A stretch of DNA of 64,000 nt, taken from Pecten maximus. Lineage: Eukaryota. The stretch's first letter is position 1, and each line of letters begins with the position of its first letter. The position numbers were made by a program. This document shows positions 32,807 to 35,800 of this stretch, piece after piece. The stretch spans positions 6,200,001-6,264,000 of the forward strand of contig NC_047017.1 of assembly GCF_902652985.1 (NCBI RefSeq). Direction: 5' to 3'.

Positions 32807-35800
32807 TAAGCTGTATTTTGGCAAGGGTAAAGGAAGACAAAAGTGGCGAGCTTTGGCGAGCTTATATTTTAAGACACTGACCTTGCATTATATTTATCCT
32901 GCAACAGTCATCAAAAACAATCATTTTGAAGTGAAACGGTGTCAAAACCGATAGAAATATGTTCGCCTTTTAACGTTGTTTCACTTTGAAGTAGGTCAGT
33001 CGAATTAACGCACGTGCTAAGATTCCAAAAATACAGCTGTTTTCCGTCACTGCCGTATACAGCAAAAATATATTTGGTTGGTGTATTCCGAAAATGCGGT
33101 GGCAGTTGCAGGATAAAAATATTTATTAGTTGTATATTTTACGGTGGTGAAACGTACGCGGCTCCTAACGTTAGACCTAGTACACAGGGATTTGTTTAAT
33201 TAAGCCAAATACAGGAGCTAAAATACAAATATATTGTTATACTGATACGTAATCCATTAGGACACTGTATATCACTATTTTAATTTCTTTACTTTTAGAT
33301 AAAGATTTCCCTATAAATAATACATATTTTTTTCAGGCTTTGTTGCAAGTTTGAAGATAGTCCATTAAAACTGGAAAAGAATAAATTTTAAATACGTAGT
33401 GAACATTTAAAAAAATATTAACGATTGCTATTTGTTTAATTAGGAATAATGTATTTGTTTAATTAGGAATCATTCCGAAACTTGGAAACATGGATTCAGG
33501 AGGCTGACAAATACAGCACTTACGACAGCCCTATGATTCTTGTGGGGAACAAATCGGACATGACAGGCAAACGGGTAGTGACATACACCATGGGCAAGGT
33601 AGGAATATAATCAACTTGTTGGTCAAGGTTCCACTAATTCTGACTTTCGTCAATGAATAATTTATATATTTTACCTCTATACTTTATCTATATGAATTTA
33701 TTGAGAATACAATTTGTATAATGTTGGGAAATATTGACATACACAAAATTCAGTTGTTCCGTTGTTGTAAGATGGCGGCTGGAAACTTAAGTTCCACTTA
33801 TATAGAAAAGGTGTCATATCCATTACAATACATACTACACACTTAAAATGTCTAAAAGTAAGAGACAAAAAAATATTTAAAAAACTTGAAGGCAATTTCG
33901 TCTCGAAAACTAAGCATAATATAATACCAATTTTCTTCACTTTCAGGAATATGCTGAAAGACTAGGTATCACGTTCTTGGAAACCAGTGCCAAAAGTACT
34001 ACCAACGTTGAAACGTTATTCTTGTCACTGACATCCGAAGTCAAAAGCAAAGTTGTCGAGGGCAAATTAAATACTACTGGTGGCGGTACAGTGATTGTCC
34101 GCAACAGTTCGCCGGTCAACAAGAAATCGTCCTGGTTATGTTGCTGAAGACATGGAAACAGGAGTTAACTATAACGGGTCATACATATAATTAGAGGCTA
34201 CTTGTCACAACCCACCTGATTCTGTATAATTACAGATAGTGCCTTTATATAAGTGGTGCCGAAATGAGCCGATTGACTTAGAAGTTATACTAGGGCACAC
34301 ATTTCTTCATATGACATCAGCATGTTGAAATTGACAATGTTCACGTGATTTTTAAAAAGAAAATTAGCTCAATTATGTTATTAGGAATCCCCAACTTGTA
34401 GACAAGATAATGAACCTCGGTCGATATTACTTAATCTGTTATCACATACTGCAGATATTTAAGGCGGATTGTACATCAGTGTAGAGTGCATGCTAAGAAT
34501 CGACATCAGTTTCAATCCAAGTTACTGTTAATGACATTCACAGATGCTGCTCTCAATTATAGCGATCAAATTATAAAAAAATTGTTGGGATGAAAATGAG
34601 GTACATATACTATATTTAGAGAATCGATATCAGTTCTATATACAAGTCACTGATAATGACATTCGTCAATACTATATTGTACATCATTATCTTTTTCAAT
34701 GTGATAGAGATATGATCATACTCGGAATCGACACCAGTTTCAATCCAAGTTACTGGTAATGACATTCGGAGATGCTGCGATCAAAATATAAAAAATCTGT
34801 TGGGATGAAAATGAGGTACATATACTATGTTTAGAGAATCGACATCAGTTCTATATACAGGTCACTGATAATGACATTCGTCAATTCTGTACTGTACATT
34901 GTTATCTTAACATTATGTGATAGAGATATTATCATACTCGGAATCGACACCAGTTTCAATCCAAGTTACTGGTAATGACATTCGGAGATGCTGCCCACGA
35001 ATAGGAGCTCAAGAATCTTCAGCATGGAAACGAGATAAATGTATATACATACACAGTATATATACTTTACAGAGATATTCAACATCAGTCAGTGATAATG
35101 ATATTTGATGTATGATTAGTGTATATACAATATATGTACAGTACATCAAAGATGTAAATTTAACATTTGTAAAGAAGTAAAATGGATTTTTAGCAAAATT
35201 GCTCAGTACAAAGGTGTTTAGCACACTAATTACATTTGATATACATTATATATGTTATTAATTGTGACTGATGATTAATAATATTCTAATCACACCCTGA
35301 TATATATTTACACTATTCGTGTGATAGTTCATACAAATTAGTGTTAGCATATTTACCATACTGTAATTTTACAAAACACTTAGTTTTCTTGTAAAATTAT
35401 TTTCGCGGTAATTTCTTGGCAGCCACACGTTTTAAGAATTTATTTGCCAAAAAAATAACGCAGGGCATTTGTCCTCGTTTAGTAGTTTCTGAATACATTT
35501 CTATGGGGTATTAAATCTTATAATGAATGAATGTACTCGCTTCTGGTCATGAAATGACACAAAAATACAGGTCGTCTAAATAGAGAGACTTCGCTGTAGT
35601 TATTACGCCAAACGTATGATGTAGTGATCTACAGTATTTGCTTATCCAAATATTAATTATTTTTGTATGTTTTGATAAATTGTTATCCATCGATTTGATC
35701 ACAAGAATATGATGGTTTTTTTTTTTAAATGTTTATACTTTTGTAATTATACCATTGTTATAATAAAATGTTGCACAAAACTTGATGCTTTGATGTTTTT

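What the first reader, a model, noticed from the sequence alone, without database searches (positions are those of the whole stretch)
33533..33565. Copies 3 and 4 are chimeras with a crossover in the G4 (NKSD) box
Seen: up to gacagccct in exon 6, copies 3 and 4 match copy 5 (ESL, KYSTYDSP, intron-5 element, doubled acceptor). From ggcaaa onward they match copy 2 (intron 6, exon 7 ending KSSWLCC, 3' flank), while copy 5 has ccccaa and a different exon 7. The switch lies in a 33-bp block identical in copies 2-5 (27466-27498, 33533-33565, 39493-39525, 45699-45731). Inference: unequal crossover between an ancestral copy 2-copy 5 pair joined the copy-5 effector face to the copy-2 hypervariable targeting tail, shuffling specificity and localisation modules.
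Basis: partly seen in the sequence, partly recalled or inferred. Interest (0 to 1): 0.72.

Follow-up and report, generated by a model that had tools for sequence, protein, structure and literature searches.

The report
Hybrid Rab1-like genes in scallop
Two of five neighbouring Rab1-like genes in this scallop DNA are natural hybrids: an unequal exchange inside one exon joined the front of one gene to the back of its neighbour, which is a well-known way of making new genes and is seen here very cleanly.

Summary
The 33-bp block occurs exactly at 27466, 33533, 39493 and 45699. In copies 3 and 4 the nearest neighbour switches from copy 5 to copy 2 across it. The last copy-5-type site is 33532 and the first copy-2-type site is 33566 (0 of 2000 permutations reach the observed chi-square). 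The window is Pecten maximus or nearly identical DNA. It carries five intact, same-strand, 7-exon Rab1-like genes. The hybrids have the 5' part of the downstream gene and the 3' part of the upstream gene, and the ~6-kb units are colinear through the spacer. This is what unequal crossover predicts ("anti-Lepore" type).

Refinements:
- Copy 4 is a second-order mosaic, with a further exchange at 37883-38372.
- Patches 10-12% diverged show the array is not very young and has undergone later exchanges.
- Copy 5 evolves fast along its whole length. Its switch II reads QESL instead of the family's Q[D/E]RF.
- Copy 2's C-terminal third matches the scallop family consensus, so the hybrids put a derived G-domain front on a conservative back.

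The functional "specificity/localisation shuffling" is untested. This is a new member of a known kind, of moderate to low interest.

The parts
33533..33565 (+). Breakpoint interval in copy 3: a 33-bp block in exon 6 encoding MILVGNKSDMT (G4 box NKSD). The nearest neighbour switches from copy 5 to copy 2 across it.
39493..39525 (+). The same breakpoint interval in copy 4.
27466..27498 (+). The homologous block in copy 2. It marks the proximal edge of the ~6-kb repeat array.
45699..45731 (+). The homologous block in copy 5. It marks the distal edge of the repeat array.
14340..19300 (+). Copy 1, an older Rab1-like paralogue (switch II QERF, tail ending CTC). Used as outgroup. Its exon 2-7 peptides equal public protein P0003.
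24979..28081 (+). Copy 2, the proximal parent: 7 exons, 202 codons, switch II QDRF, conservative sequence. Its exon 2-7 peptides equal P0002 (Pecten maximus 'YPTC1-like').
30482..34147 (+). Copy 3, a hybrid gene with 7 intact exons and GT-AG introns throughout. Exons 1-6a are copy-5-type and exons 6b-7 are copy-2-type. The promoter-to-exon-3 part belongs to an older copy-5-type lineage.
36553..40108 (+). Copy 4, a hybrid gene with 7 intact exons. It is a second-order mosaic: promoter to exon 3 like copy 5, the middle like copy 3, and the 3' part like copy 2.
42685..46454 (+). Copy 5, the distal parent: fast-evolving, switch II QESL, derived tail. Its exon 2-7 peptides equal P0001 (Pecten maximus 'Rab-1A-like'). 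The exon-5 donor is GC.
27466..33532 (+). Repeat unit U1: copy-2-type 3' part, spacer, then copy-5-type 5' part.
33533..39492 (+). Repeat unit U2.
39493..45698 (+). Repeat unit U3.
37883..38372 (+). Interval of the second exchange in copy 4 (end of exon 3 to intron 4). Upstream of it U2 follows U3 (copy 5); downstream it follows U1 (copy 3).
30929..31510 (+). Patch where U1 (copy 3 upstream region, exon 2, intron 2) is about 10-12% diverged from U2=U3.
35030..35780 (+). Spacer patch where U2 is about 8-14% diverged from U1=U3. Most of the 116 U2-private substitutions lie here and at about 36780-37030.
32773..33117 (.). Interspersed repeat in intron 5 of copy 3. It is also present in copies 4 and 5 and absent from copy 2, and another copy lies at 2698-3029 on the other strand. 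It is a shared marker of the copy-5-type front.
33421..33466 (+). Duplicated acceptor at the end of intron 5: 23 nt in copy 3, 24 nt in copies 4 and 5. Splicing at the upstream copy would read E then a stop.

Best explanation
The window holds a tandem, same-strand cluster of five scallop-specific Rab1-like GTPase genes. An ancestral neighbouring pair, copy 2 upstream and copy 5 downstream, misaligned. An exchange took place inside exon 6, within the 33 bp that encode MILVGNKSDMT. The duplication product carries an in-frame hybrid gene between the two parents. The hybrid has copy 5's upstream region and exons 1-6a, covering the P-loop, switch I, switch II with QESL, and the helix 3/strand 5 loop. 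It has copy 2's exons 6b-7 and 3' flank, covering the rest of the G4 loop, helix 4, the G5 SAK box, helix 5 and the CC tail.

The resulting ~6-kb unit was then amplified to three units by a second unequal exchange between units. In the gene this exchange maps to 37883-38372 and gave copy 4. Further exchange or conversion produced the present mosaic.

What is shown:
- the switch of nearest neighbour;
- its position to 33 bp in both hybrids;
- the orientation of the hybrids;
- colinear units;
- intact reading frames and splice sites.

What is inferred:
- that the exchange was homologous unequal crossover rather than another homology-guided mechanism;
- that there was one founding junction, inherited by both hybrids;
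- that the hybrids are expressed and functional.
For: (1) The exact block occurs at four places. The last copy-5-type site is 33532 and the first copy-2-type site is 33566, and the same holds in copy 4.

(2) In one search the maximum chi-square of 515 falls at exactly this interval in both hybrids, with 0 of 2000 permutations reaching it. The left/right counts (copy-5-type/copy-2-type) are 371/29 and 4/238 for copy 3, and 395/15 and 18/221 for copy 4.

(3) ML trees. On the left part (2067 of 4046 columns kept), copies 3, 4 and 5 form one group with 100/100 support, path c3-c5 0.029 against c3-c2 0.26. On the right part (641 of 867 columns kept), paths are c3-c2 0.011 against c3-c5 0.19.

(4) The hybrid has the 5' part of the downstream gene and the 3' part of the upstream gene. 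The units 27466-33532, 33533-39492 and 39493-45698 align over their whole length at 96.4-97.2% substitution identity. Outside the array edges the similarity falls to the old paralogue level.

(5) Copies 3 and 4 share a private non-synonymous C at 33504/39464 (Ala, where copies 2 and 5 have Val) next to the junction. This fits one founding hybrid.

(6) An independent polarity argument. At family-conserved positions copy 5 departs from the majority at 16 of 104 left of the break and 14 of 61 right of it. Copy 2 departs at only 2 of 104 and 6 of 62. The relative-rate counts for the copy 2 against copy 5 lineages are 3 against 14 on the left (p 0.008) and 2 against 8 on the right (p 0.058). The hybrids are derived on the left and conservative on the right, as a hybrid should be.

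(7) All seven exons of copies 3 and 4 are open, with AG acceptors and GT donors. Copy 3 against copy 4 in the left part shows 7 synonymous and 2 non-synonymous differences, dN/dS 0.07, binomial P 5e-4 against neutrality.

(8) The block lies in a stretch where copies 2 and 5 are 77 of 80 identical. It ties for 7th-8th longest identical run between them.
Against: - The block is not the longest identical run between the parents: runs of 54, 52, 43, 36, 35 and 35 bp exist. Thirty-three bp is also short for classical homologous recombination, so the exchange mechanism itself is not proven.
- The unit mosaic does not fit two clean steps. There are segments where U1=U3 and U2 is 8-14% diverged, and segments where U2=U3 and U1 is 10-12% diverged. 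This requires extra exchanges, an old array with patchy homogenisation, or input from copies I cannot see.
- Off-pattern sites remain: 29 and 15 on the left, 4 and 18 on the right. They are scattered or lie in a repeated 3' flank, as expected for parent-private mutations, but I did not examine them one by one.
- No read-level, transcript or population evidence is available here.
- No database representative carries the hybrid exon 6 letter for letter; the best is 93% among 6 of 6 candidates scored. I could not show that the hybrids are annotated or expressed.
- In the right-hand tree the branch that sets copy 5 apart from copies 2-4, relative to the outgroup, has weak support (41/3). The case on that side rests on distances, not on that branch.
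Confidence: 0.85

Rival explanations
1. Gene conversion instead of crossover. On this view copies 3 and 4 arose as whole-gene duplicates of copy 5. Later their 3' parts, from the G4 box onward, were overwritten by copy 2.
For: The array clearly undergoes conversion-like exchange: mosaic segments 12|3, 23|1 and 13|2, and a stretch of about 400 bp around exon 7 identical in all three units.
Against: This needs two tracts with the same 33-bp end point in copies 3 and 4. Each tract must run from exon 6 through exon 7, the 3' flank and the spacer, since copy-2-type identity continues for kilobases. The proximal and distal edges of the high-identity array fall at the same homologous position in exon 6, which one crossover explains directly.
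Confidence: 0.05
2. Assembly artefact. Either the junctions or the number of units (three) result from mis-assembly, or two haplotypes of one unit were laid out in tandem in a heterozygous genome. Short-read polishing could have blurred the copies.
For: Passages of the P. maximus genome paper PMC7191990 report noisy PacBio reads assembled with wtdbg2, Arrow and freebayes polishing with short reads, and 1.71% heterozygosity. Stretches of 100% identity among units could partly be polishing products. I do not know that the window comes from that assembly.
Against: The window has no N. Each unit carries many private substitutions and indels: 116 U2-private substitutions and patches 8-14% diverged, well above allelic level. 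Distinct reads must therefore underlie each unit. A false join between sequences only 72-86% alike around the junction is unlikely. It would not produce in-frame, register-perfect junctions twice.
Confidence: 0.06
3. The structure is the same, but it was made by a replication-based template switch or break-induced repair guided by the short identity, not by meiotic unequal crossover.
For: Only 33 bp of perfect identity sit at the junction, inside about 80 bp at 96%, in parents otherwise about 86% identical in this exon. Such short substrates are typical of template-switch models (recalled general knowledge).
Against: The junction is perfectly homologous and in frame, with no inserted or deleted bases. 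The later unit-level exchanges show that ordinary homologous exchange operates in this array. Sequence alone cannot tell the two mechanisms apart.
Confidence: 0.12

Closest known systems
Haemoglobin anti-Lepore type hybrid genes (recalled textbook example, not from a call)
   Same: Two tandem paralogues in the same orientation misalign and an exchange occurs inside the coding sequence. The duplication product carries, between the intact parents, an in-frame hybrid with the 5' part of the downstream gene and the 3' part of the upstream gene. That is the arrangement seen here.
   Different: Here the hybrid unit has been amplified again to two hybrids, has diverged, and shows later exchanges. It appears in an assembled scallop sequence rather than as a rare human variant. 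The reciprocal Lepore-type deletion has not been seen.
CYP11B1/CYP11B2 chimeric gene, and the HERC5/6 chimeric gene in rodents and bats (abstracts seen in the search listing: PMC8750845, PMC7775381)
   Same: Hybrid genes made by unequal crossing over between adjacent similar genes. The hybrid combines the regulatory region and front of one gene with the back of the other.
   Different: A different gene family and different organisms. I saw only the listing abstracts and compared no breakpoint features.
Canonical Rab1A/Rab1B/Ypt1
   Same: The best solved-structure matches of the two parent proteins are Rab1A and Rab1B (E 2e-75 and 4e-71), ahead of Ypt1, Rab8, Rab10 and Rab35. The G1-G5 boxes and the C-terminal CC are present.
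   Different: Identity to canonical mollusc Rab1A is only 52%. The scallop proteins form their own clade with 100/100 support. Copies 3-5 have SL where 14 of 15 aligned sequences have RF in switch II.
Laboratory Rab chimeras that swap C-terminal regions to test targeting (recalled literature of the early 1990s, not read here)
   Same: They join the front of one Rab G domain to the back and tail of another, as these natural hybrids do.
   Different: Those are engineered constructs with measured localisation. Here nothing about localisation is measured, and the two tails differ at only 11 of 30 tail positions while both keep WLCC.

Membership tests
Rab small GTPase (Ras superfamily) | Guanine-nucleotide boxes G1 (GxxxxGKS/T), G3 (DTAGQ), G4 (NKxD) and G5 (SAK) | tested here: met
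   Exon peptides of copies 3 and 4 contain [19 protein letters not shown] and ETSAK. The motif definitions are recalled.
Rab small GTPase (Ras superfamily) | Match to the Pfam Ras family model | tested here: met
   7 of 7 exon peptides submitted hit PF00071 above its 21.6-bit cut-off, with scores of 23.5-40 bits. They were exons 2, 5, 6 and 7 of copy 3, exons 6 and 7 of copy 5, and exon 6 of copy 2. The search was done exon by exon.
Rab small GTPase (Ras superfamily) | C-terminal double-cysteine prenylation motif | tested here: met
   Exon 7 of copies 2, 3, 4 and 5 ends in ..WLCC followed by a stop.
Rab small GTPase (Ras superfamily) | Rab family motif in switch II (RabF3, R-F-x-x-x-T; definition recalled) | tested here: not met
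   Copies 3, 4 and 5 read SLKTIT and copy 2 reads RFKTIT. 14 of 15 aligned family members have RF. The other Rab family motifs (IGVDF, LQIW, FYRGA, LVYDVT) are present.
Canonical Rab1 orthologue | Groups with Rab1A of other animals at high identity | tested here: not met
   Identity to two mollusc Rab1A proteins is 52%. The 13 scallop-type sequences form a separate clade with 100/100 support. This is a Pectinidae-restricted Rab1-like subfamily, not Rab1 itself.
Hybrid gene from unequal crossover between tandem paralogues | Parents adjacent and in the same orientation | tested here: met
   All five copies lie on the + strand in tandem.
Hybrid gene from unequal crossover between tandem paralogues | Hybrid consists of the 5' part of the downstream parent and the 3' part of the upstream parent, and lies between them | tested here: met
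Hybrid gene from unequal crossover between tandem paralogues | Junction at homologous, in-frame positions within a stretch of identity, with no inserted or lost bases | tested here: met
   The 33-bp block is identical in all four copies, and exon 6 is 132 nt in every copy.
Hybrid gene from unequal crossover between tandem paralogues | Duplicated unit runs from the junction through the spacer to the next junction, with both array edges at the same homologous site | tested here: met
   The units of 6067, 5960 and 6206 bp are colinear. Beyond 27466 and 45731 the similarity drops to the old paralogue level.
Hybrid gene from unequal crossover between tandem paralogues | Reciprocal deletion product or copy-number variation in the population, and reads spanning the junctions | not testable with these tools

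The most novel reading that the evidence does not exclude
The hybrids are not mere by-products. They may be retained, working Rabs in which a rapidly evolving G-domain front, with switch II QESL instead of the family's Q[D/E]RF, was re-coupled to the conservative family-standard back and tail of copy 2. That would give a new pairing of partner recognition with membrane delivery. The event would then be a natural domain-swap experiment inside a Pectinidae-only Rab1-like subfamily. Two observations favour retention: both hybrids are intact, and the differences between them are mostly synonymous.
Probability: 0.2. Interest if true: 0.5.

Novelty: new member of a known kind. Interest (0 to 1): 0.3.

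Why it matters
This is a clean, base-resolved example of how tandem paralogues generate new gene combinations by unequal exchange inside an exon. It occurs in a genome described as unusually rich in duplicates (passages of PMC7191990).

For Rab biology it offers a ready-made natural chimera: the front of a fast-evolving, switch-II-altered paralogue on the back of a conservative one. It could be used to ask which half controls localisation and partner choice.

For annotators it flags two near-identical genes that are easily merged, mis-modelled or hidden in 90% clusters. It does not change any general principle.

Tried and rejected
It was mis-specified and found nothing relevant. Reading the sequence and an exact search replaced it.
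Whether the three members of the P0002 cluster are copies 2, 3 and 4 therefore stays unverified. The hybrids differ from copy 2 at 19 and 18 of 198 residues, about 90.4-90.9% identity, so they could sit in that cluster.
- an AlphaFold2 model of P0001 with the 15-row alignment gave mean pLDDT 45.3. This is too poor to use, so I ran no fold search. I placed the junction in the fold from the ungapped alignment to Rab1A together with recalled Rab secondary structure.
- no Rfam family at gathering score and no tRNA in the window.
- four literature searches listed no paper on this locus, on Rab hybrids made by unequal crossover, or on a scallop Rab1-like subfamily. 'Rab' occurs 0 times in the main text of PMC7191990. 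Its supplements are closed and may list gene families.
- The spliced models of the hybrids (copies 3 and 4) were handled exon by exon only. The joined step was left out, so no whole-protein search, fold or tree of the hybrids was made. Whole-protein work used the public models of the parents (P0001, P0002, P0003).
- I considered and rejected 'the hybrid type is ancestral and the edges diverged'. Copy 2 is conservative and copy 5 derived along their whole lengths, and the boundary is sharp to 33 bp.
- Not used: genome contigs, which holds prokaryotes only; metagenome contigs and viral contigs, which are closed; and complex prediction, because I make no binding claim.
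Full report
**What the window is.** The window has no N and 25-37% G+C. tblastn with the six exon peptides of copy 3, each searched on its own, finds five same-strand gene copies. A short motif search finds a first exon (ATG plus 8 nt, GT donor) upstream of each copy. The exon tables give these spans:
- copy 1: 14340-19300
- copy 2: 24979-28081
- copy 3: 30482-34147
- copy 4: 36553-40108
- copy 5: 42685-46454

Each copy has 7 exons, AG acceptors and GT donors. The one exception is a GC donor after exon 5 of copy 5. 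The exon 2-7 peptides of copies 5, 2 and 1 are found letter for letter (6 of 6 each) in three NCBI Pecten maximus proteins, P0001, P0002 and P0003. The window is therefore king scallop DNA or something nearly identical. I do not take it for human.

**The observation.** The 33-bp block occurs exactly at the four stated places, and with three mismatches in copy 1. All three mismatches are synonymous, since the peptide MILVGNKSDMT is unchanged.

In the alignment of copies 2-5, copies 3 and 4 follow copy 5 up to 33532/39492 and copy 2 from 33566/39526.

Sites where copies 2 and 5 differ:

| Copy | Sites | Left of block (copy-5-type / copy-2-type) | Right of block (copy-5-type / copy-2-type) |
|---|---|---|---|
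| 3 | 642 | 371 / 29 | 4 / 238 |
| 4 | 649 | 395 / 15 | 18 / 221 |

The maximum chi-square (515) lies exactly across the block in both copies, and 0 of 2000 shuffles reach it.

ML trees with copy 1 as outgroup give:
- Left part: copies 3, 4 and 5 together with 100/100 support, path c3-c5 0.029 and c3-c2 0.26.
- Right part: c3-c2 0.011 and c3-c5 0.19. Here the branch separating copy 5 relative to the outgroup is weakly supported (41/3), so the right side rests on distances.

**What made it.** The three units 27466-33532, 33533-39492 and 39493-45698 are 6067, 5960 and 6206 bp long. They are colinear through the whole spacer at 96.4-97.2% substitution identity. Both edges of this high-identity array fall at the same homologous point in exon 6.

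The hybrids carry the 5' part of the downstream gene and the 3' part of the upstream gene. This is the specific prediction of unequal crossover between tandem paralogues, the duplication counterpart of a Lepore-type deletion (a recalled textbook case). The junction is in frame and has no added or lost bases, and exon 6 is 132 nt in all copies.

Copies 3 and 4 share a private non-synonymous change beside the junction: C at 33504/39464, Ala instead of Val. This fits one founding hybrid that was later duplicated.

The block sits in about 80 bp where the parents are 77 of 80 identical. It is only the 7th-8th longest identical run between them. Homology guided the exchange, but the exact mechanism is not settled. 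Meiotic crossover and a replication-based switch remain equally compatible with the sequence.

**Polarity from relatives.** A database search with the public copy-5 protein scored 8000 candidates, and 7468 had E <= 1e-40. The best 120 were listed. The closest were all from scallops (Argopecten irradians, Ylistrum balloti, Mizuhopecten yessoensis) or unnamed contigs, at 64-73% identity. Canonical Rab1A proteins were near 55%.

From those 120 I aligned 15 sequences:
- 13 scallop-type sequences: P0001-P0004, P0006, P0009-P0011, P0013-P0016 and P0018.
- 2 canonical mollusc Rab1A proteins, chosen as outgroup.

I left out the 170-residue isoform P0005 and the long fused models P0007, P0008, P0012 and P0017.

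The scallop sequences form their own clade with 100/100 support. Copy 5's terminal branch is 0.29 against 0.028 for copy 2.

At positions where at least 70% of the ten non-Pecten-maximus scallop-type sequences agree:

| Copy | Left of break | Right of break |
|---|---|---|
| 5 | departs at 16 of 104 | departs at 14 of 61 |
| 2 | departs at 2 of 104 | departs at 6 of 62 |

Relative-rate counts with copy 1 as outgroup are 3 (copy 2 lineage) against 14 (copy 5 lineage) on the left (p 0.008), and 2 against 8 on the right (p 0.058).

So copy 2 is conservative throughout and copy 5 derived throughout. The hybrids are derived on the left and conservative on the right, and this marks them as the recombinants. 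Copy 2's tail (..VIVRNSSPVNKKSSWLCC) is the family standard and copy 5's tail is the unusual one.

**What was swapped.** By the ungapped alignment of P0002 to Rab1A, together with recalled Rab secondary structure, the break lies in the G4 loop after strand 5.
- The copy-5 part holds the P-loop, switch I, the interswitch, switch II and the helix 3/strand 5 loop.
- The copy-2 part holds the rest of the G4 loop, helix 4, strand 6, G5 (SAK), helix 5 and the tail.

The swapped piece is therefore larger than the hypervariable tail. The two parents differ there at 2 residues of exon 6b and 16 of 66 positions of exon 7.

In switch II, copies 3-5 read QESL where 14 of 15 aligned sequences have RF. The catalytic Gln and all the G boxes are kept.

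An AlphaFold2 model of P0001 was too poor to use (pLDDT 45.3).

**Are the hybrids alive?** Both are intact. Pairwise codon counts, pooled per exon with no joined sequence made:

| Comparison | Part | dN/dS | Notes |
|---|---|---|---|
| copy 2 vs copy 5 | left | 0.26 | dS 0.31 |
| copy 2 vs copy 5 | right | 0.60 | dS 0.21 |
| copy 3 vs copy 4 | left | 0.07 | 7 synonymous, 2 non-synonymous differences |
| copies 3, 4 vs copy 2 | right | not defined | 0 differences in 77 codons |

The copy 3/copy 4 excess of synonymous change is unlikely under neutrality (P 5e-4). However, those differences are few. They may also have been imported by exchange from another functional copy.

No transcript evidence was available. 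No database representative matches the hybrid exon 6 exactly (best 93%, 6 of 6 candidates scored). The hybrids are about 90.4-90.9% identical to copy 2, so they could be hidden in P0002's 90% cluster of three members.

**The history is not two clean steps.** Copy 4's upstream region to exon 3 follows copy 5. In U1 coordinates this is 30716-31924, in runs of 4, 5, 17, 30 and 11 sites. From 32413 to 33504 it follows copy 3, in runs of 8 and 13 sites. A second unit-level exchange therefore lies at 37883-38372.

Two kinds of patch do not fit:
- U1 at 30929-31510 is 10-12% diverged from U2=U3.
- U2 at about 35030-35780 and 36780-37030 is 8-14% diverged from U1=U3.

The differences in these patches are scattered substitutions, not alignment noise. 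The U1=U3 pattern cannot come from two simple crossovers. Either the array is older than its overall 3% divergence suggests and has been patchily homogenised, or sequence came in from copies outside the window. Short-read polishing of a noisy long-read assembly (passages of PMC7191990) could also have blurred small differences. I do not know that the window comes from that assembly.

**Rivals.**
- Gene conversion needs two kilobase-long tracts with the same 33-bp end.
- An assembly artefact is unlikely for the junctions, because the window has no gaps, each unit has many private variants, and the junctions are in perfect register. It cannot be excluded for the number of units without reads.
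- A template-switch origin gives the same structure and cannot be told apart from crossover here.

**Comparison and novelty.** Mechanistically this is a standard unequal-crossover hybrid gene. All the testable defining features are met, and the population and read features could not be tested.

The genes are Rab-family members of a Pectinidae-restricted Rab1-like subfamily, not canonical Rab1. The hybrid fronts lack the RF of switch II.

Four literature searches listed nothing on this locus or on natural Rab hybrids. The scallop genome paper's main text does not mention Rab, and its supplements were closed.

Verdict: a real, well-resolved feature; a new member of a known kind; moderate to low interest. 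The boldest reading still open is that the hybrids are retained as functional new combinations.

**What stayed unchecked.**
- Reads, transcripts, other individuals and the orthologous loci in other scallops.
- The eukaryote-bearing collections, which were closed or absent.
- The cluster members.
- Whole-protein analyses of the hybrids, because the joined step was left out.

Noticed in passing
window 44885-44886: The donor after exon 5 of copy 5 is GC (gcaagt). Copies 1-4 have GT at the same place. The parent therefore has a weaker-looking splice site than the hybrids.
   Followed up: partly
window 33421-33466, 39380-39426, 45586-45632: A 23-nt (copy 3) or 24-nt (copies 4 and 5) duplication repeats the intron-5 acceptor. 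Splicing at the upstream copy would read Glu and then a stop, so it could act as a decoy site.
   Followed up: partly
window 32773-33117, 38732-39076, 45018-45287 and 2698-3029 (other strand): An interspersed repeat of about 270-345 bp with an internal inverted repeat. It lies in intron 5 of copies 3-5 and once more far upstream, at 82-90% identity. No Rfam family matched.
   Followed up: partly
window 43457-43488 (copy 5) and public protein P0001: The public copy-5 model (209 aa) starts exon 2 at an acceptor 31 nt upstream, adding ISIYSLFS-type residues. The acceptor shared by copies 2-5 (copy 1 splices a few bases upstream) would give 202 codons, as in copy 2.
   Followed up: partly
proteins P0006 and P0004 (Argopecten irradians and an unnamed contig): These scallop relatives read WDTAGKDRF, with Lys in place of the catalytic Gln of the G3 box. 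This suggests a paralogue that is GTPase-impaired or locked.
   Followed up: no
window 28421-28926, 34489-34994, 40447-41155: The 3' flank of the copy-2-type end holds an internal tandem duplication of about 228 bp. U3 carries one more copy, seen as a 200-column gap in the unit alignment.
   Followed up: no
window 45886-46024: Intron 6 of copy 5 has an insertion of about 140 bp that copies 2-4 lack.
   Followed up: no
window 889-1235, 1987-2391, 7010-7411: Minisatellites: 45-bp units x7.6 and x9.0 (95-99% matches), and a 16-bp unit x25.
   Followed up: no
window 61907-62365 (+): An open stretch of 152 codons rich in Gln, with Q/G/N-rich near-repeats and a run of 16 Gln. It may be an exon of a low-complexity protein.
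   Followed up: no
window 15344-15501 and 61072-61358: Two palindromic stretches that match their own reverse complement at 87% and 91%. The first lies in intron 2 of copy 1.
   Followed up: no
window 27666-28066 and the equivalent stretches in U2 and U3: About 400 bp covering the end of intron 6 and exon 7 are 100% identical in all three units, while the about 100 bp just upstream hold 6 differences. This could be recent conversion or an effect of polishing.
   Followed up: no
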